Below are positions 1,422 through 9,320 of a DNA stretch of 64,000 nucleotides, one piece after another. The position numbers and the translations under genes were made by a program. The notes below the pieces were generated by a model. It worked only from the letters and a program-made list of their open reading frames with translations, searched no databases and had not been told where the DNA came from. Location of the stretch: IMG/VR virus record IMGVR_UViG_3300045988_103180. One strand, given 5' to 3'. Origin of the DNA: a virus. Position 1 is the stretch's first letter; every line of letters starts with the position of its first letter.

Positions 1422-1451
1422 TTGACAGACTTTATATCAATATGATATAAT
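1422..1451 (+). promoter_or_regulatory. early-class promoter (drives tRNA-Thr/Gln unit)
   Basis: aaaaagttcTTGACA-18-TATAAT. Confidence 0.65.
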
Positions 1452-1848: not shown

Positions 1849-1866
1849 CCTAGTTAAAAAAATTAC

Positions 1867-1895
1867 TTGACAAATACCAAGTAATTTTATATAAT
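1867..1895 (+). promoter_or_regulatory. early-class promoter (drives permuted tRNA-like RNA 1)
   Basis: TTGACA-17-TATAATata. Confidence 0.7.
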
Positions 1896-1902
1896 ATAGT
1901 TA

Positions 1903-2370
1903 ACAAATCGTGATGGTGAAGGTTCAGGTTCGACTCCTGCCGCTGTCCGACAAGGACGGCGTAGTTTCAATTGGTGAGAATAGCACCTAGCGATTGTGTT
2001 ATATCCAATGCTTGGGGAGAGGTTATCGCTGCAAGGTAAATGTCTCCCGACTTCTATAATCTTTTGCAGGGATTATAGATTAAAGGGTTGGCGGTTTTCC
2101 CAGTTTGAAACCGTCCACGTGATTATATTATCTTGCTTGCAAGATTTTATATATGCCGGCTCTGTAGCCGTAGACAATGCGGGCCAGCGCATACTTGAAA
2201 AGAAGCGCCTAGGGGAAGAGGAATCTGGTATATTTTGGTAGTTTTCAAACCTCTGCAGATGTGAAAACTACTACTTTAATTGCGGGTGGGAGGTCAGTAT
2301 CTCACGGAGTCTCATAAGCTCTGTTAAGTTTCGGCAGCAGAAACACCTCGCGACCAATTTTTGTTATAAA
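1903..2370 (+). ncRNA. ORF-free structured transcript starting with a circularly permuted, loop-capped tRNA-like module (1906..1995)
   Basis: Begins just after promoter 1867..1895. Order is T arm, acceptor hairpin with GACAA loop, D arm. Followed by a series of 7-11 bp hairpins up to the next promoter. Only ORF present (1996..2241) lacks an SD. Confidence 0.6.
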
Positions 2371-2377
2371 AAATTAT

Positions 2378-2407
2378 TTGACAAATAGTTGAATAATTTG
2401 ATATAAT
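2378..2407 (+). promoter_or_regulatory. early-class promoter
   Basis: TTGACA-18-TATAATata. Confidence 0.65.
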
Positions 2408-2569
2408 ATATCTAGAAGGAAAGGGAAAAAGGATAGTCAACAGTACCGTCAACAAACCAGTGACCCTGCGGCTTATTGCCAACACCCAGAAGTGTAATGC
2501 TTAGTACGCTGTTAGGTTTGACCATTTGTTTTCTTCTAGTGTAGTAAACCAAGAGAAAGGTAAGAAAGT

Positions 2570-2710
2570 ATGGCACAGTCAATCGAGACGATGGAACAGC
2601 GTTATCAGATGCTACTTAACCGCAAAGGTAAGAACTCAGAAAATGTAGGCATCATGCGCAAGCTACGCCGCAAGATTAACAAGGCAAAGCAGGGTGTCAT
2701 TCTTTCCTAA
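2570..2710 (+). CDS. small basic protein (46 aa)
   Basis: Hand-translated MAQSIETMEQ...; preceded by the conserved leader aaccaagagaaagg; below ORF-track cutoff. Confidence 0.5.
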   Translation: MAQSIETMEQRYQMLLNRKGKNSENVGIMRKLRRKINKAKQGVILS

Positions 2711-2725
2711 TTAAGTTTATTTATT

Positions 2726-2821
2726 ATGCGTGATGAGGGTTCAGTTACTTCGTGAAGATTTTATGGGATATTTTAAATGCGGTACGCTGCATTTGTTAGT
2801 CTGACCCCAATTTTTCCGCAT
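2726..2821 (+). ncRNA. R-family structured RNA element, copy R0
   Basis: P1 ATGCG/CGCAT, TGATGAG, P2 GGGTTCAG/CTGACCC, loop starts TTACTTC, 3' tract ATTTTTC. Confidence 0.5.
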
Positions 2822-2829
2822 ATTTTTTC

Positions 2830-2862
2830 TTGACTTCTGGTCTATGTATATTATGATATAAT
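2830..2862 (+). promoter_or_regulatory. early-class promoter (irregular spacing)
   Basis: tttttcTTGACT ... TATAATata; -35/-10 spacing looks too long, so the true -35 is uncertain. Confidence 0.45.
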
Positions 2863-2893
2863 ATACATAGACCAAGAGAGAAAGAGGTTTGTT

Positions 2894-3049
2894 ATGAAGC
2901 AGTTCGTCATTTGTCGTGAAAAGACCTGCGGTATCTATTCAATTCGTGTCAACACTGATTGTTCTACTGTTCGTTTTGAGATAATCAAAGATTTCGACAC
3001 GTTTGAAGATGCAGACAACTACCTTCATAATATTCTTCTATATAAGTAA
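2894..3049 (+). CDS. small protein (51 aa)
   Basis: Hand-translated MKQFVICREK...; leader accaagagagaaagagg plus promoter 2830..2862. Confidence 0.5.
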   Translation: MKQFVICREKTCGIYSIRVNTDCSTVRFEIIKDFDTFEDADNYLHNILLYK

Positions 3050-3059
3050 TTCATTCTAT

Positions 3060-3128
3060 TGGAGTGTAATTCAGTTGGTAGAATGTTGTTAACTCAACGT
3101 GTCGCAGGTTCGAGTCCTGTCACTTCAA
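3060..3128 (+). tRNA. tRNA-like gene with non-canonical anticodon arm (identity undetermined)
   Basis: Normal acceptor, D (ATTC..GAAT) and T (GCAGG-TTCGAGT-CCTGT) arms, but anticodon arm is GTTG-TTAACT-CAAC (4 bp, 6-nt loop); 69 nt. Confidence 0.5.
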
Positions 3129-3157
3129 TAGAACAAAACGTGGCTTATCTACCCTGC

Positions 3158-3229
3158 TGGAGTGTAGCTCAATGGTAGAGCCTGCGGCTGTTAACCGCAT
3201 TGTTGTAGGTTCGAGTCCTACCATTCCAG
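3158..3229 (+). tRNA. tRNA-Asn (GUU)
   Basis: TGGAGTG/CATTCCA, D GCTC..GAGC, TGCGG-CTGTTAA-CCGCA, GTAGG-TTCGAGT-CCTAC. Confidence 0.85.
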
Positions 3230-3912: not shown

Positions 3913-3923
3913 ATGTTTATTAA

Positions 3924-3993
3924 ATGCGTGATTAAGATTCAGTTACTTCGTATGGGCTTATGTATTGTAACACTGAATCTAACTTTTCCGCAT
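3924..3993 (+). ncRNA. R-family element, copy R1
   Basis: P1 ATGCG/CGCAT, TGATTA, P2 AGATTCAGT/ACTGAATCT, TACTTCG loop start, CTTTTC. Confidence 0.5.
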
Positions 3994-4009
3994 TTATTTG
4001 TTTACCATA

Positions 4010-4113
4010 ATGCGTGATAATAAATCAGTTACTTCATTCTGGAAAAATGCGCTTGCAGGTTCGACTCCTGCTCTGTATCGGTATACATTTTACTGATTTA
4101 GCCTTTTCCGCAT
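4010..4113 (+). ncRNA. R-family element, copy R2 (carries an inserted T-arm GCAGG-TTCGACT-CCTGC)
   Basis: P1 ATGCG/CGCAT, TGATAAT, P2 AAATCAGT/ACTGATTT, TACTTCA, CCTTTTC. Confidence 0.5.
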
Positions 4114-4130
4114 TTACTTTATTAAAGTAG

Positions 4131-4212
4131 GCGATACGTGATAACGTTTCAGATACTTCAAATCTCCATTCTGAGCTGATTACTCAAACTGAAACACCTA
4201 TTTCCGTATCGC
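4131..4212 (+). ncRNA. R-family element, copy R3
   Basis: P1 GCGATACG/CGTATCGC, TGATAAC, P2 GTTTCAG/CTGAAAC, ATACTTCA, CTATTTC. Confidence 0.45.
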
Positions 4213-4223
4213 TTTCTCTTGTG

Positions 4224-4333
4224 CGGCAAGTGATTAGTAAAGAGTTACTTCGTTATATGATATGTTTAAATAAGAGCAACTTTCACTAGAAAGAGGCAAC
4301 CCCACCTATACTCTTTACACTTTTTCCTTACCG
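4224..4333 (+). ncRNA. R-family element, copy R4
   Basis: P1 CGGCAAG/CTTACCG (1 mismatch), TGATTAG, P2 TAAAGAGT/ACTCTTTA, TACTTCG, CTTTTTC. Confidence 0.4.
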
Positions 4334-4387
4334 TTATTTGTAAACCCCTTTCTCGCCTATATAGTGTGCGAGCTATATAGACACAAA

Positions 4388-4464
4388 TGTGCGTGATTAT
4401 TATTCAGTTACTTCATATAGCAATTTTTATGACCATCCAACACTGAATAAACTTTTTCCGCACA
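4388..4464 (+). ncRNA. R-family element, copy R5
   Basis: P1 TGTGCG/CGCACA, TGATTAT, P2 TATTCAGT/ACTGAATA, TACTTCA, CTTTTTC. Confidence 0.5.
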
Positions 4465-4477
4465 CATTGATATTTTA

Positions 4478-4505
4478 TAGGGACTCTTTTGAGTCCCTAT
4501 TTTTT
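4478..4505 (+). terminator. rho-independent terminator
   Basis: TAGGGACTC-TTTT-GAGTCCCTA + T-run. Confidence 0.75.
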
Positions 4506-4506
4506 G

Positions 4507-4536
4507 TTGACTATTGGCTATATATTATGCTATAAT
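4507..4536 (+). promoter_or_regulatory. early-class promoter
   Basis: TTGACT-18-TATAATata. Confidence 0.65.
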
Positions 4537-4563
4537 ATATTTAAGAAATCGAAAGGAGATTCA

Positions 4564-5100
4564 ATGAGCATCTTTGTAGTCAGTGACACTCATTTTTCGC
4601 ATCAGAATATTATCAATTATTGTGAGAAGTCGCGTGCTTTTAATACGGTTGATGACATGAACGAAGACATCATCGAAAGGTGGAATTCCGTTGTATCTCC
4701 TGATGATACTATCTATCATCTTGGTGATTGCTTCATGGGACCGCTTGAGACTGTAGCTAAATATGGTTCTCATCTCAATGGAAAGGTTCATGTGATTCCC
4801 GGCAATCATGATACCAAGAAACGCATTGCTGAAATGGAAAAGCTCGGCTGGATTATTGAAAACAAGGTATCTTGTCTTGATTACAATGATGTCAGTTTCA
4901 TTATGATTCACGAGCGCCCCGAGGAAATGCGTGGAGACAGCGCCAATGTCATTCTATACGGTCATGTTCATGATGCGGCTCCCAAGGGCCTTGTTGATTG
5001 GACATATCATGTAGGTGTTGACACTAATAATCTTACTCCTGTTAATATTCATGACATTTGGCTCGATGTCCAGCAGAAGAAGATTGAGCTTGGAGAGTAA
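4564..5100 (+). CDS. calcineurin-like metallophosphoesterase
   Basis: Motifs SDTHF (DxH), LGDCF (GD), PGNHD (GNHD), YGHVH (GHxH); ORF trimmed to ATG 4564 behind AAAGGAG. Confidence 0.85.
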   Translation: MSIFVVSDTHFSHQNIINYCEKSRAFNTVDDMNEDIIERWNSVVSPDDTIYHLGDCFMGPLETVAKYGSHLNGKVHVIPGNHDTKKRIAEMEKLGWIIENKVSCLDYNDVSFIMIHERPEEMRGDSANVILYGHVHDAAPKGLVDWTYHVGVDTNNLTPVNIHDIWLDVQQKKIELGE

Positions 5101-5101
5101 A

Positions 5102-5296
5102 ATGGAAGTCAAGCATAAGGTCCAGCGTATCTGCGGCAATTGCAGATTTTACAAAAATTGCAGTTGCTATCGCTTTCCTCCAAATGTAATTATTGACCCA
5201 ACAGATTATAATATCTATACAGTACATCCTTCACCGCAAAGTGGAGATAGGTGCGGTGAATGGGCAATTCATCCTAAATTGGAGAAATATGAGTGA
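5102..5296 (+). CDS. small Cys-rich protein (CGNC motif)
   Basis: ORF 5015..5296 trimmed to ATG 5102 next to upstream stop; CGNCRFYKNCSC motif, paralog-like to 5631..5804. Confidence 0.55.
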   Translation: MEVKHKVQRICGNCRFYKNCSCYRFPPNVIIDPTDYNIYTVHPSPQSGDRCGEWAIHPKLEKYE

Positions 5297-5561
5297 AATG
5301 TGTAGTATGCACCTTAATAAAATGACTGCTATGATTCTTGATTTCATTGTGTACCTTAGTCAGCAGAAAGATATTGAGAAGATTGTAGATAAACTTAAAA
5401 AGGTTGACCGTGCTGTTTTCCATGACCTTGTTGTAAATGCTATGGAAAAGAATCCTTCTCATACTAGCACTTATTGTGCTGAGCAGTTATGGAACATGGC
5501 TCCACTTACATCTTTAGCTCTCTTGGATTGGCTTAATAATTTCAACGAATTTTATGCCTAA
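5289..5561 (+). CDS. hypothetical protein
   Basis: ORF 5193..5561 trimmed to ATG 5289 behind GGAGAAAT; overlaps upstream stop. Confidence 0.55.
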   Translation: MSEMCSMHLNKMTAMILDFIVYLSQQKDIEKIVDKLKKVDRAVFHDLVVNAMEKNPSHTSTYCAEQLWNMAPLTSLALLDWLNNFNEFYA

Positions 5562-5804: not shown

Positions 5805-5955
5805 TAAATCTGACCGTGACACATACTTTGACCTGCTTTATGATATGTACGATGCCGACTTGGTTGATGTTGCTTTAGAGACTCTTGGCGAGAATGAGCT
5901 GCTTGATGGCATTCCTGCTATGCTTAAAGACTATTATTTTGACGAAGATTGCTAA
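5794..5955 (+). CDS. small acidic protein (53 aa)
   Basis: ORF 5719..5955 trimmed to ATG 5794; stop abuts the next start codon. Confidence 0.45.
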   Translation: MEISKSDRDTYFDLLYDMYDADLVDVALETLGENELLDGIPAMLKDYYFDEDC

Positions 5956-6855
5956 ATGAAAGTAGCGGTTATGAATTTTAAGACTTTTGAAGGAAATTCT
6001 GGCGATATATGGAAGTATGTCTTTACGAAAGAAGATATGGTCGCCGAAGCGGTTCTATATAAATATAATAGTTACTACGATAGAACTGTAATTTGTTGCA
6101 GCGTTATGAGTGGTTGTCCTGTTGGATGTCTCTTTTGCGGCACTGGTTCTAAATTTGTTAGGAATCTTACTGCTGATGAAATTGTAGATCAGATTGTAAC
6201 CGTCTTAACTAATAAAGGTTTAATTAATGACATTAATGAAAAGTGTAAAAAATTACAGTTTATGTTTATGAGCATGGGTGAGCCTATGTTAAATTGGGTA
6301 GAAGTTGAAAAAGCAATTGTCAATCTTCATAAAAAGTTTAGTAATGCTCAGTTACTACTTTCGACTATTGGCTGTGATAATGATGAAACTTTTGCAAAGA
6401 TGATTGCTCTATCTAAGAAGATAGATAAAATTGGTTTGCAATTTTCTATTCATAAGTCCAATGACGCAGAGCGGAATGTGTTAATTCCATTCAAGAAGAA
6501 AATGAATCTTCAAAAGATTAGGGATGTTGGAACTGTTTGGTGGAAAGAAACCGGTAGGCATCCATTCTTAAACTACTGCATTGATGGAACGAATAATGAA
6601 GATAAGAACTTTAAAGAACTTACAGACCTGTTTTCTCCTGTAATCTTTAATTTTACTTTTAGTGTAGTTTGCGCATCTGATGAAACTATGAAAGATGCTG
6701 CGTTTAGAAACTTAGATGTTATTAAGAAGTTTCAGGATAAGTTCTTAGAAAAGGGTTATAATGTAAGGACATTTGACCCAGCTGGTCAAGATGATATTGG
6801 TGGTGGGTGCGGCCAGCTTTGGTATGTTCAGAAGTGGCTAAAGTCTCACCAATAG
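5956..6855 (+). CDS. radical SAM RNA methyltransferase, RlmN/Cfr family (N-terminally short)
   Basis: CCSVMSGCPVGCLFC (CX3CX2C plus a Cys 7 residues upstream as in RlmN), MSMGEPMLN, LSTIG, C-terminal DDIGGGCGQL as in RlmN ..DIxAACGQL. Confidence 0.85.
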   Translation: MKVAVMNFKTFEGNSGDIWKYVFTKEDMVAEAVLYKYNSYYDRTVICCSVMSGCPVGCLFCGTGSKFVRNLTADEIVDQIVTVLTNKGLINDINEKCKKLQFMFMSMGEPMLNWVEVEKAIVNLHKKFSNAQLLLSTIGCDNDETFAKMIALSKKIDKIGLQFSIHKSNDAERNVLIPFKKKMNLQKIRDVGTVWWKETGRHPFLNYCIDGTNNEDKNFKELTDLFSPVIFNFTFSVVCASDETMKDAAFRNLDVIKKFQDKFLEKGYNVRTFDPAGQDDIGGGCGQLWYVQKWLKSHQ

Positions 6856-6948: not shown

Positions 6949-6963
6949 CCTCTAACTTTTTTC

Positions 6964-6993
6964 TTGACAATTGCATATTGAATATGATATAAT
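6964..6993 (+). promoter_or_regulatory. early-class promoter (drives permuted tRNA-like RNA 2, tRNA array and radical SAM gene)
   Basis: tttttcTTGACA-18-TATAATata. Confidence 0.7.
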
Positions 6994-6998
6994 ATAGT

Positions 6999-7213
6999 TA
7001 TCAAGTCGAGCATAGAGCAGATGTGGGTTCGACTCCCATCCTTGCCCGACAAGGGCGAGGTAGTTTAATTGGTTAAATACGGTTCTTACGTTCGACTAGA
7101 TATATAGAAAATATAGGAAATAGCTTAACCCTATATTTTCAACTTCTAAAGCCTAGCTAGCTTTAGATTAAAAGGTTCGCAACTATCCTTAAAATGGTTG
7201 CCACTAGTGACGG
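6999..7213 (+). ncRNA. second circularly permuted tRNA-like module (6999..7102) plus two long hairpins, leading the tRNA array
   Basis: Same architecture and same GACAA cap as 1906..1995; closing stem TATC-A-AGTCGA / TCGACT-A-GATA; hairpins 7107..7139 and 7146..7168. Confidence 0.6.
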
Positions 7214-7214
7214 T

Positions 7215-7286
7215 GTGTTAGTAGTTTAACTGGCAGAATTGCAAGGTGACGTTCTTGAGATTGGAGTTCGAATCTCCACTAGCGCA
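7215..7286 (+). tRNA. tRNA-like gene with non-canonical anticodon arm (identity undetermined)
   Basis: GTGTTAG/CTAGCGC, T arm TGGAG-TTCGAAT-CTCCA, but anticodon arm CAAG(G)-TGACGT-(T)CTTG gives a 6- or 8-nt loop. Confidence 0.5.
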
Positions 7287-7293
7287 CGAAAAT

Positions 7294-7365
7294 TTCTCTA
7301 TGGTGTAATTGGCAGCACAACGGATTTTGGTTCCGTTAGTTTATGTTCGAGTCATAATAGAGAAG
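7294..7365 (+). tRNA. tRNA-Gln (UUG)
   Basis: TTCTCTA/TAGAGAA (U1-A72), ACGGA-TTTTGGT-TCCGT, TTATG-TTCGAGT-CATAA. Confidence 0.8.
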
Positions 7366-7372
7366 CCAACAT

Positions 7373-7445
7373 GTCCATGTAGCTCAGTAGGTAGAGCAGC
7401 AGACTGAAAATCTGCGTGTCGGTAGTTCAATTCTACCCGTGGACA
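7373..7445 (+). tRNA. tRNA-Phe (GAA)
   Basis: GTCCATG/CGTGGAC, GCAGA-CTGAAAA-TCTGC, GGTAG-TTCAATT-CTACC. Confidence 0.85.
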
Positions 7446-7453
7446 CCTTATAT

Positions 7454-7526
<73 letters not shown>

Positions 7527-7541
7527 CCTTTAGTTTTCTTT

Positions 7542-7615
7542 GGCAGTGTAGCTTAGATGGTTAGAGCGCACGGCTCATACCCGTGAGGTCATTAGTTCAA
7601 ATCTAATCACTGTCA
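7542..7615 (+). tRNA. tRNA-Met or Ile2 (CAU), elongator type
   Basis: GGCAGTG/CACTGTC (G1-C72), CACGG-CTCATAC-CCGTG, ATTAG-TTCAAAT-CTAAT. Confidence 0.8.
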
Positions 7616-7623
7616 CCTTATAT

Positions 7624-7708
7624 GCGGCTATGGCGGAAGTGGCAGACGCGCTAGCTTTAGGTACTAGTGGGGAAACCCATGCAGGTTCGATTCCTGCTAG
7701 CCGCACCA
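7624..7708 (+). tRNA. tRNA-Leu (UAG), type II, CCA encoded
   Basis: GCGGCTA/TAGCCGC, anticodon loop TTTAGGT, variable arm TGGG-GAAA-CCCA, GCAGG-TTCGATT-CCTGC, ACCA. Confidence 0.75.
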
Positions 7709-9290: not shown

Positions 9291-9320
9291 TTGACATACA
9301 GCAATTCAAAATGATATAAT
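9291..9320 (+). promoter_or_regulatory. early-class promoter
   Basis: TTGACA-18-TATAATata plus leader. Confidence 0.7.

What the first reader, a model, noticed from the sequence alone, without database searches (positions are those of the whole stretch)
6999..7213. Second copy of the permuted capped tRNA-like module, heading the main tRNA operon
This locus has the same architecture as 1906..1995 but a different sequence:
- closing stem TATC-A-AGTCGA (6999-7009) / TCGACT-A-GATA (7092-7102);
- T arm GTGGG-TTCGACT-CCCAT (7023-7039);
- 8-bp helix CCTTGCCC/GGGCGAGG with the identical GACAA cap (7040-7060) and a G-U wobble at the same position as in copy 1;
- TA, then D arm GTTT-AATTGGTT-AAAT.

The helices differ in sequence while staying paired, and the loops (TTCGACT, GACAA, AATTGGT) are conserved. 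That is the signature of a selected RNA structure rather than a tRNA fragment.

It sits directly after promoter 6964..6993. Two perfect hairpins follow (11 bp at 7107..7139, 8 bp at 7146..7168), then seven tRNA/tRNA-like genes and a radical-SAM gene.
Basis: partly seen in the sequence, partly recalled or inferred. Interest (0 to 1): 0.8.

Follow-up and report, generated by a model that had tools for sequence, protein, structure and literature searches.

The report
Phage Y-RNA-like tRNA mimic
The flagged element is real: it is a circularly permuted, loop-capped tRNA look-alike of the kind already known as bacterial and phage "Y RNA-like" (YrlA) RNAs, and related phages encode the matching Ro60 protein, so it is an unusual new example of a known class rather than a new kind of RNA.

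Summary
Window 6998-7102 folds into a four-way junction. The 5' and 3' ends form a bipartite closing stem. Inside it lie a canonical T arm, an 8-bp "acceptor" helix closed by a 5-nt loop, and a D arm.

Across 24 distinct homologous sequences, 92% of cells pair and 20 of 34 pairs show double-sided changes. Opening the cap and closing the inner stem in silico makes ARAGORN call a tRNA.

This architecture is that of YrlA, the Ro60-bound Y RNA-like tRNA mimic. Rfam YrlA matches full length but below threshold (32 bits against a gathering score of 69).

All 16 related loci that reach the relevant region encode a Ro60/TROVE ortholog (E 1e-20 to Thermus phage phiLo Ro60). They also encode two RNA ligases, a kinase and a phosphoesterase. 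However, Ro60 lies about 15-20 kb away on the other strand. The YrlA motif GNCGAA(N)G is not met, and a covarying 110-nt three-hairpin 3' domain is added.

The element is accessory. The copy at the finding is absent from about half of the relatives, and three relatives lack both copies.

The GACAA cap and the G-U wobble are not conserved, and there are six tRNAs, not seven.

Verdict: a new variant of a known kind, of moderate interest.

The parts
6964..6993 (+). Consensus sigma-70-type promoter (TTGACA-18-TATAAT with an upstream TG). The predicted start lies at about 6999-7001, which is the first bases of the closing stem.
   Evidence: 12 of 12 matches. The start site is inferred from spacing, not measured.
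6998..7102 (+). Copy 2 of the permuted, acceptor-capped tRNA-like module (YrlA-like).
- Outer stem P1a: 6999-7002 / 7099-7102
- P1b: 7004-7011 / 7090-7097
- Inner 'anticodon-like' stem P2: 7014-7018 / 7082-7086
- Variable loop: 7019-7022
- T arm: 7023-7039
- Capped acceptor-like helix: 7040-7060
- U8-A9 equivalents: 7061-7062
- D arm: 7063-7078
   Evidence: Fold. Rfam YrlA 32.4 bits, model positions 1-114 of 114. Covariation. ARAGORN calls a tRNA after de-permutation.
7107..7140 (+). Tail hairpin 1 (11 bp, 12-nt loop).
   Evidence: A hairpin of different sequence sits at the same place in copy 1.
7141..7167 (+). Conserved linker ACTTCTA overlapping tail hairpin 2 (7145-7152 / 7160-7167).
   Evidence: On 20 distinct tails, 100% of cells pair and 3 of 8 pairs show double-sided changes.
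7168..7201 (+). Conserved linker TTAAAAGGTT and tail hairpin 3 (7179-7183 / 7197-7201). A possible pseudoknot joins AAGG 7172-7175 to CCTT 7187-7190.
   Evidence: Stem variants GCAAC/GTTGC, GCAAT/ATTGC and GTAAT/ATTAC all pair. For the pseudoknot, one covarying pair (A-U in copy 2, G-C in copy 1) and two invariant pairs. The pseudoknot is only a possibility.
7215..7708 (+). Six co-oriented tRNA genes that follow with no terminator in between. The first (7215-7287) has an 8-nt anticodon loop. RNase P cleavage at its 5' end would set the 3' end of the module-plus-tail RNA.
   Evidence: The processing step is inferred.
1867..1895 (+). Consensus promoter of copy 1.
   Evidence: 12 of 12 matches.
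1900..2125 (+). Copy 1: module 1900-2001 plus a homologous three-hairpin tail 2002-2125.
   Evidence: My covariance model R1 scores it 88.7 bits.
2130..2155 (+). Terminator-like hairpin ATCTTG-CTTG-CAAGAT followed by TTTTATATAT. It would end the copy 1 transcript at about 250 nt.
   Evidence: Read from the sequence. The consensus scan did not call it because it has too few G-C pairs, so it is weak.

Best explanation
The element is a phage-encoded Y RNA-like tRNA mimic of the YrlA class. It is transcribed from its own strong promoter. Its first ~105 nt fold into a tRNA L-shape core: T arm, D arm, and an acceptor helix closed by a loop. The anticodon arm is replaced by a long bipartite stem made from the 5' and 3' ends of the module. 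A 110-nt three-hairpin domain follows.

In copy 2 the RNA is most likely released as a ~215-nt species when RNase P cuts the 5' end of the next tRNA. Copy 1 most likely ends at a weak terminator.

The most likely role is as an RNA partner, scaffold or gate for the Ro60 (TROVE) protein that this phage lineage encodes. That protein sits within a phage RNA repair and quality-control kit: Rnl1-type and Rnl2-type ligases, a P-loop kinase, and a metallophosphoesterase. The tRNA-like head and the 3' domain would serve as docking sites for tRNA-recognising or RNA-decay and repair enzymes.

Shown here: the structure, its conservation, the promoter consensus, the resemblance to YrlA, and the presence of Ro60 and repair genes in relatives. 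Inferred: transcription start, processing, Ro60 binding, and the biological role.
For: Structure:
- MFE fold z = -4.87.
- 94.6% of cells pair and 15 of 34 pairs have double-sided changes on 10 sequences.
- 92.2% pair and 20 of 34 pairs change on both sides on 24 distinct sequences. Every slid control stays at or below 44% paired.
- The capped helix pairs in 100% of cells, with 6 of 8 pairs covarying.

tRNA identity:
- The sequence carries the equivalents of U8, A14, A15:U48, G18-G19, T-loop UUCGACU and G53-C61.
- De-permuted sequences of both copies are called as tRNAs with an 8-bp acceptor stem.

Class:
- Rfam YrlA aligns full length, E 1.5e-5 locally.
- Reciprocally, my model R1 hits a metagenomic module at 34.6 bits, E 2e-4. 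That module lies 240 nt upstream of a Pfam-confirmed Ro60 (TROVE plus vWA_Ro60) gene.
- Another module lies upstream of a divergent Ro60-like ORF.

Partner protein:
- A 478-aa TROVE protein matches PDB 9KOP/9L5Y (phiLo Ro60) at E 1e-20.
- It is present in all 16 related loci that reach the region, including the closest relative of the window, which is 94% identical in nucleotides.
- No other YrlA-like RNA lies next to that gene.

Context:
- Rnl1-type ligase, SpoU methylase and PhoH.
- RNA_ligase PF09414 and AAA_33 kinase.
- Metallophosphoesterase and two radical SAM genes.
- This matches the phage RNA-repair kits with TROVE and a tRNA-like partner described in PMC7824862.
- In a more distant relative the orthologous region holds a complete permuted tRNA-like module on a long stem, scored 31.8 bits by Rfam YrlA.
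Against: - The Rfam score is under half the gathering score. The same model gives 36 bits to a plain tandem-tRNA junction at 3083-3211, so the score alone does not discriminate. Copy 1 gets no YrlA hit at all.
- The Ro60-recognition motif GNCGAA(N)G is not present. Copy 2 has GUCGAGC, which becomes AUCGAGC in most relatives. Copy 1 has AUCGUGA.
- The D and T stem sequences that are near-invariant in YrlA differ here.
- Ro60 is not within 4 kb on the same strand. It is 14.8 and 19.5 kb away on the opposite strand in contig 089790, and it is not in this window.
- Two contigs keep Ro60 but lack both copies.
- A separate six-copy RNA family in the same region could be the real Ro60 partner.
- No expression or binding data exist.
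Confidence: 0.55

Rival explanations
1. Ro60-independent tRNA decoy. The capped tRNA look-alike is made in large amounts early in infection. It soaks up or misdirects host proteins that recognise the tRNA elbow and acceptor region, such as tRNA-targeting defence nucleases or toxins, and so protects the phage's and host's real tRNAs.
For: - The element sits in a variable tRNA and RNA-repair region with Rnl1-type ligase, kinase and phosphoesterase genes, which are typical counter-measures to anticodon nucleases.
- It has a consensus promoter.
- It is accessory and swapped like a cassette together with tRNAs.
- Ro60 is kept in genomes that lack it.
- It has no anticodon loop, so it cannot decode.
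Against: - It lacks the anticodon loop that most known tRNA-directed defence nucleases cut or read.
- The architecture coincides with a class that is known to be bound by Ro60, and a Ro60 gene is conserved in the lineage.
- A decoy role does not explain the conserved closing stem and 3' domain.
Confidence: 0.2
2. Precursor of a two-piece tRNA-like or tmRNA-like RNA. RNase P opens the capped 8-bp acceptor helix, the 3' strand is trimmed and receives CCA, as in Mycobacterium smegmatis YrlA. The resulting split molecule is possibly charged and acts with the ribosome or EF-Tu.
For: - The acceptor-like helix is at least 7 bp, the feature that makes M. smegmatis YrlA an RNase P and CCA-adding substrate.
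- The gene order (stem strand, T arm, acceptor 3' strand, loop, acceptor 5' strand, D arm, stem strand, then hairpins and a possible pseudoknot) is that of permuted tmRNA genes (own knowledge).
- A related metagenomic locus carries such modules next to a true tmRNA.
Against: - ARAGORN, which finds permuted tmRNAs, and Rfam find no tmRNA here.
- There is no G3:U70; the wobble is at pair 5 and is not conserved.
- I found no conserved tag reading frame when reading the tails of the two copies.
- Most copy-1 homologs have a weakened 2+4-bp helix that would be a poor RNase P substrate.
- The helix is 8 bp, not 7.
Confidence: 0.1
3. A cis-acting 5' leader. It would be a stable 5' structure that protects the tRNA operon transcript from 5' exonucleases, or that organises RNase P/Z processing, and is then degraded.
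For: Copy 2 sits between the promoter and six tRNAs with no terminator. It always travels with the odd tRNA-Gln-Phe cassette in relatives.
Against: - Copy 1 has the same module and tail but no downstream tRNAs, and ends in a terminator-like hairpin.
- A simple hairpin would suffice for protection, yet full tRNA tertiary-contact nucleotides are kept.
Confidence: 0.08
4. A decaying remnant of a tandem tRNA duplication, with no function of its own.
For: - Tandem copies of similar tRNAs naturally give a T arm, complementary acceptor strands and a D arm in this order. Such junctions score with both the YrlA model and my model.
- The element is dispensable in relatives.
Against: - Compensatory changes keep all five helices, including the two closing stems that no tandem tRNA has.
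- Two paralogs with little sequence identity outside the loops keep the same layout plus a homologous tail.
- Each has its own 12/12 promoter.
- No flanking tRNA halves are present.
Confidence: 0.04

Closest known systems
YrlA (Y RNA-like A; Rfam RF02553; Chen et al. 2014, PMC4201824; crystal structure, Wang et al. 2018, bioRxiv 10.1101/312249)
   Same: - Order: stem strand, variable loop, T arm, closed acceptor-like stem-loop, UA, D arm, stem strand.
- tRNA tertiary-contact nucleotides, including an A15:U48 Levitt pair.
- The 5' and 3' ends pair into a long interrupted stem in place of the anticodon arm.
- Found in phages that encode Ro60, and linked to RNA-repair genes.
   Different: - Scores 32 bits against a gathering score of 69; copy 1 is not hit.
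- The D stem is GUUU/AAAU and the T stem GUGGG/CCCAU, not the near-invariant GCUC/GAGC and GCGGG/CCCGC.
- GNCGAA(N)G is replaced by GUCGAGC, AUCGAGC or AUCGUGA.
- The Ro60 gene is 15-20 kb away on the other strand, not within 4 kb on the same strand.
- The acceptor-like helix is 8 bp.
- There is an extra 110-nt three-hairpin 3' domain.
- Copy 2 is the leader of a tRNA operon.
Thermus phage phiLo Ro60 with Yrl1/Yrl2 (PMC12135203)
   Same: The phage-encoded Ro60 of this lineage matches phiLo Ro60 at E 1e-20 over 383 residues. Both phages encode more than one Y-like RNA.
   Different: The phiLo Yrls lie directly upstream of the Ro60 gene. They are defined by a stem-bulge-stem with a CGAA motif, and a word search of that paper found no use of 'tRNA-like'. 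Binding is shown for phiLo but not here.
Circularly permuted tRNA genes of red algae and some archaea (Soma et al. 2007, as cited)
   Same: [quoted passage not shown]
   Different: Those precursors carry a real anticodon loop after circularisation and need a splicing endonuclease. Here there is no anticodon loop, and no such enzyme is known in bacteria.
Two-piece (permuted) tmRNA genes
   Same: The permuted order of the tRNA-like domain is the same, and it is followed by hairpins and a possible pseudoknot.
   Different: No tmRNA call by ARAGORN or Rfam. No G3:U70, no tag reading frame, and a full D stem is present.
Stable non-tRNA RNAs in phage tRNA clusters (T4 species 1 and 2 RNAs; own knowledge, not checked here)
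   Same: Small stable RNAs co-transcribed and processed with phage tRNAs.
   Different: I did not compare the sequences or structures. The function of those RNAs is also unknown.

Membership tests
YrlA / bacterial Y RNA | tRNA-like domain in the order T arm, closed acceptor-like stem-loop, D arm, enclosed by a stem formed from the 5' and 3' ends | tested here: met
YrlA / bacterial Y RNA | Nucleotides for tRNA tertiary contacts (U8, A14, R15:Y48, G18G19, T-loop UUCRA, G53:C61) | tested here: met
   Read from the sequence. The D loop is AAUUGGUU, the T loop UUCGACU, and A15 pairs with U48 at the end of variable loop AGAU. The same holds in copy 1.
YrlA / bacterial Y RNA | Score at or above the Rfam gathering threshold (69 bits) | tested here: not met
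   Copy 2 scores 32.4 bits. Copy 1 has no hit at E <= 10. A tandem-tRNA junction scores 36.2 bits.
YrlA / bacterial Y RNA | GNCGAA(N0-1)G motif near the 5' end, the presumed Ro60 contact | tested here: not met
   Copy 2 has GUCGAGC, and the first G is A in 7 of the 10 distinct copy-2 rows in A6. Copy 1 has AUCGUGA. Two metagenomic modules next to a Ro60 or Ro60-like gene carry GGCGAGUG and GUCGAGAG, so a GNCGAG variant may be tolerated, but this is unproven.
YrlA / bacterial Y RNA | Encoded within about 4 kb of a Ro60 (TROVE) gene, on the same strand | tested here: not met
   No TROVE in the window ORFs tested, nor within 10 kb upstream in relatives. In contig 089790, Ro60 is 14.8 kb from copy 1 and 19.5 kb from copy 2, on the opposite strand.
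YrlA / bacterial Y RNA | A Ro60 ortholog in the same genome | tested here: inconclusive
   Met in all 16 related loci that reach the region, including the closest relative at 94% nucleotide identity. The window itself does not cover that part of the genome.
YrlA / bacterial Y RNA | Bound by Ro60 in vivo or in vitro | not testable with these tools
   Needs RIP or EMSA.
Permuted (two-piece) tmRNA | Detection by tmRNA models, a G3:U70 alanine identity pair, and a tag reading frame | tested here: not met
   Searches give no tmRNA. The wobble is at pair 5 and is variable. Reading searches showed no conserved frame.
Circularly permuted tRNA gene | An anticodon loop recoverable after joining the ends | tested here: not met
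   Joining the natural ends gives no tRNA call. A tRNA is called only after an artificial 7-nt loop is inserted.
Tandem-tRNA junction (artefact) | Complete tRNAs on both sides supply the T arm and the D arm | tested here: not met
   No tRNA overlaps 6951-7214 or 1851-3059 in ARAGORN or Rfam.

The most novel reading that the evidence does not exclude
The ~215-250-nt RNAs may be composite phage Y RNAs. The tRNA-like head and the added three-hairpin/pseudoknot tail would tether the phage Ro60 ring to phage RNA-repair enzymes (Rnl1/Rnl2 ligases, kinase, phosphoesterase) or to a host exoribonuclease. Together with the six-copy 'CG|UGAU' stem RNAs nearby, they would form a swappable set of adaptors that direct one Ro60 to different damaged RNAs, such as tRNAs cut by host defence nucleases. 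Production of copy 2 would be coupled to tRNA supply through RNase P.
Probability: 0.15. Interest if true: 0.7.

Novelty: new variant of a known kind. Interest (0 to 1): 0.42.

Why it matters
- Y RNAs are the least understood partners of Ro60, and the function of their tRNA-like domain is still open.
- This lineage of ~140-kb human-gut phages offers a natural experiment. It has a conserved Ro60 and a full RNA-repair kit. Its tRNA-mimic RNAs are unlinked from Ro60, driven by their own strong promoters, embedded in tRNA operons, extended by an extra domain, and present in 0, 1 or 2 copies in otherwise similar genomes.
- The current Rfam YrlA model and the 'within 4 kb of Ro60' search rule would both miss such RNAs. 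Phage Y RNAs may therefore be more common in tRNA arrays than annotated.
- Similar modules also turned up next to ROOL, GOLLD and tmRNA genes.

Tried and rejected
- Near and distant BLAST of the element against deposited phage genomes found nothing beyond a tRNA-Gln match.
- The nearest deposited relative by portal protein, Phage Phass-1, has no tRNAs in its first 50 kb, so I dropped it.
- Exact-protein look-ups for two window proteins were not on record.
- My first DNA patterns mostly returned tandem tRNAs. I filtered them by requiring a hairpin between the T arm and the D arm.
- My first alignment used wrong minus-strand coordinates and was discarded.
- The tmRNA reading was rejected: no model hit, no G3:U70, no tag frame.
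- I first read the common copy-1 variant as having lost the capped helix. The model-based alignment shows a weakened 2+4-bp helix instead.
- The ~100-nt intergenic stretch next to the Ro60 gene is only a terminator plus a promoter.
- My model R1 cannot separate weak true modules from tandem-tRNA junctions below about 30 bits.
- MAFFT does not align tail hairpins 1 and 3 of the two copies in register, so only hairpin 2 and the candidate pseudoknot could be counted jointly.

Full report
**What is in the sequence.**
Window 6998-7102 follows a perfect sigma-70-type promoter (6964-6993).
- a closing stem
- a T arm (GTGGG-TTCGACT-CCCAT)
- an 8-bp helix capped by GACAA
- TA, then a D arm (GTTT-AATTGGTT-AAAT)

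The unconstrained minimum-energy fold reproduces this four-way junction and adds an inner 5-bp stem (7014-7018 / 7082-7086). The z-score is -4.87, and none of 200 shuffles is as stable.

Copy 1 (1900-2001) lies behind another 12/12 promoter and has the same layout with different helix sequences.

The two copies also share a ~110-nt tail of three hairpins joined by conserved linkers (ACTTCTA; TAGATTAAARGGTT). The unit is therefore ~215-235 nt, not ~100 nt.

Copy 2 runs without a terminator into six tRNAs (7215-7708). Copy 1 ends at a weak terminator-like hairpin (2130-2155).

**Is it a selected structure?**
I found homologs in IMG/VR and metagenome contigs of 80-147 kb, at least one of them from a human-gut metagenome.
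- On ten sequences, 94.6% of cells pair, 15 of 34 pairs show changes on both sides, and the capped helix is 100% paired with 6 of 8 pairs covarying.
- On 24 distinct sequences aligned with my covariance model R1, 92.2% pair and 20 of 34 pairs change on both sides. Every slid control stays at or below 44% paired.
- Tail hairpin 2 is 100% paired with three covarying pairs. Hairpin 3 has three fully paired stem variants.
- A pseudoknot between the linker AAGG and CCUU in the hairpin-3 loop is possible, but it rests on one covarying pair.

The cap loop varies: GACAA, GATAA, GATAG, GGCAA, AGTGA, GCAA, and TTATC, which is the reverse complement of GATAA. The G-U wobble is C-G in half of the sequences.

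**Is it a tRNA body?**
The sequence carries the equivalents of U8, A14, A15:U48, G18-G19, the T loop UUCGACU and G53:C61. If the cap is opened and the inner stem is closed with any 7-nt loop, ARAGORN calls a 79-nt tRNA with an 8-bp acceptor stem for both copies. Joining the natural ends does not give a tRNA call. Each module is thus a complete circularly permuted tRNA body that lacks only an anticodon loop.

**What it is like.**
Rfam's YrlA (Y RNA-like) model aligns to 6998-7106 over its whole length, at 32.4 bits (E 1.5e-5 in a local search).

YrlA RNAs are Ro60-bound bacterial and phage RNAs. [quoted passage not shown]

The score is far below the gathering threshold of 69. The same model gives 36 bits to an ordinary tandem-tRNA junction at 3083-3211 and nothing to copy 1. 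The Rfam hit is therefore a lead, not proof.

Independent support came from the metagenome scan.
- Among distant modules with a capped helix, one (L030, 34.6 bits with R1) lies 240 nt upstream of a Pfam-confirmed Ro60 gene (TROVE plus vWA_Ro60), followed by an RlaP RNA-repair gene.
- Another (L102) lies upstream of a divergent Ro60-like ORF.
- Others sit in phage tRNA arrays next to ROOL, GOLLD-like and twister RNAs (L072), or next to a tmRNA (L033).

**Does this phage have Ro60?**
There is none in the window ORFs tested, nor within 10 kb upstream in relatives.

Walking further, all 16 related loci that reach 5 kb beyond the Band-7 gene encode a 478-aa TROVE protein (Pfam E 1.6e-13). It matches the solved Thermus phage phiLo Ro60 at E 1e-20 over residues 15-397, including the DVSGSM metal site.

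The window's closest relative (94% nucleotide identity, contig 089790) has it. There, Ro60 lies 14.8 kb from copy 1 and 19.5 kb from copy 2, on the opposite strand. Many contigs break between the Ro60 arm and the tRNA arm, which may mark a genome terminus.

No YrlA-like RNA lies next to the Ro60 gene itself.

Around these genes are:
- an RNA_ligase (PF09414) gene and an AAA_33 kinase gene
- a T4 Rnl1-type ligase, a SpoU methylase and PhoH
- in the window, a metallophosphoesterase and two radical SAM genes

This is the phage RNA-repair kit with TROVE and a tRNA-like partner that has already been described for large phages.

**What does not fit membership.**
- The GNCGAA(N)G motif is not met. 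Copy 2 has GUCGAGC, or AUCGAGC in most relatives; copy 1 has AUCGUGA.
- The D and T stem sequences differ from the near-invariant YrlA ones.
- The Ro60 gene is not adjacent.
- The element is accessory. Copy 2 is absent from 11 of 22 related loci, together with the odd tRNA-Gln-Phe cassette. Copy 1 is absent from 4, and both are absent from 3. Two of those three demonstrably keep Ro60.
- Most copy-1 homologs have the capped helix weakened to 2+4 bp around a GNCGAG-containing segment.

**A second RNA family bears on the interpretation.**
The same region holds six copies (2722-2824 and five between 3920 and 4466) of another structured repeat. Its layout is an outer stem ending in CG, then UGAU, an 8-bp second stem, an apical part starting UUACUUC, and a 3' UUUUUC loop. 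Both stems covary across 50 distinct versions.

In a more distant relative, the ortholog of the first copy carries a complete permuted tRNA-like module on this stem. Rfam YrlA scores it 31.8 bits.

Copy 1 of the finding shares CG|UGAU at the junction of its two closing stems. These RNAs may be further Y-like RNAs of the same phage, and they could be the main Ro60 partners.

**Conclusion.**
The finding is a real, structurally maintained, probably highly expressed RNA. It works like, and is most simply read as, a divergent YrlA-class Y RNA of a Ro60-encoding phage, with a new 3' domain and an unusual genomic placement.

I give about 0.85 to the structural class and about 0.55 to the Ro60-partner role.

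Rivals are:
- a Ro60-independent tRNA decoy
- an RNase P/CCA-processed split tRNA-like RNA
- a mere operon leader
- a decaying duplication remnant

It is a new variant of a known kind.

Noticed in passing
window 2722-2824, 3920-3996, 4006-4116, 4130-4212, 4222-4334, 4385-4466 (+): Six copies of an unannotated structured RNA-like repeat. Layout: an outer stem ending in CG, then UGAU(NN), an 8-bp second stem ending in CAG, a variable apical part starting UUACUUC, and a 3' loop ~AACUUUUUC. Both stems covary across 50 distinct versions in the window and relatives. There is no Rfam hit. One copy (4006-4116) holds a T-arm-like hairpin. An ortholog in a distant relative (L187 1528-1665) holds a full permuted tRNA-like module. 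These are possibly further Y-like RNAs.
   Followed up: partly
window 7215-7287 (+): A tRNA-like gene with an 8-nt anticodon loop (GUGACGUU; ARAGORN 'anticodon gacg'; Rfam tRNA 35 bits). It is conserved and lies directly after copy 2 in the relatives checked (L022, L152, L160).
   Followed up: no
related loci, e.g. L170 3406-4839 (-), 6810-7742 (-), 9449-9964 (+); L151 5789-6862 (+); window 4489-5100 (+): The lineage carries an RNA-repair-type gene set: Ro60/TROVE, RNA_ligase PF09414, an AAA_33/KTI12-like kinase, a T4 Rnl1-type ligase, a metallophosphoesterase, a SpoU methylase and PhoH. They are spread over both sides of a point where many contigs end.
   Followed up: partly
L072 (OGOP01000791.1) 2889-2992, 5060-5479, 5942-6536, 7022-7086: An unrelated metagenomic tRNA array carries a similar capped permuted module (10-bp cap helix). 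Nearby are a ROOL RNA (310 bits), a GOLLD-like match (107 bits, below threshold) and a twister-P1-like match.
   Followed up: no
L033 2057-2168, 2321-2384, 2469-2872: Two permuted tRNA-like modules (one scored 45.9 bits by Rfam YrlA) sit beside a tRNA and a standard tmRNA gene (153 bits) in a metagenome contig.
   Followed up: no
window 1422-1451, 1867-1895, 2378-2407, 6964-6993, 9291-9320 (+): Five perfect 12/12 sigma-70 consensus promoters lie within the first 10 kb, all on the + strand.
   Followed up: no
window 3083-3211 (+): Rfam YrlA gives 36.2 bits to the junction of two ordinary adjacent tRNAs. This is a false positive of the kind Chen et al. warned about, and it scores higher than the real element.
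   Followed up: yes
L022 8700-9235 and 9236-9275: In one relative, a GIY-YIG-like ORF (judged by eye from the translated sequence, not tested) is inserted between tRNA-Ile and copy 2. The promoter of copy 2 is there replaced by a copy-1-type promoter, which suggests recombination between the two copies.
   Followed up: no
L143 17399-17503: The cap loop reads TTATC, the reverse complement of the GATAA seen in close relatives, on an unchanged stem. This is as if the whole hairpin had been inverted at the DNA level.
   Followed up: no
window 2156-2375 (+): About 220 nt between the copy 1 terminator-like hairpin and the next consensus promoter have no convincing ORF, contain a 10-bp hairpin (GTAGTTTTCA...TGAAAACTAC), and are conserved in L022.
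   Followed up: no
phage record OQ749652.1 (L023): The nearest deposited relative by portal protein (40.7% identity), Phage Phass-1 from human gut, is filed under 'Caudoviricetes code 15 clade'. The window's long ORFs, up to 2847 aa, are open in the standard code.
   Followed up: no
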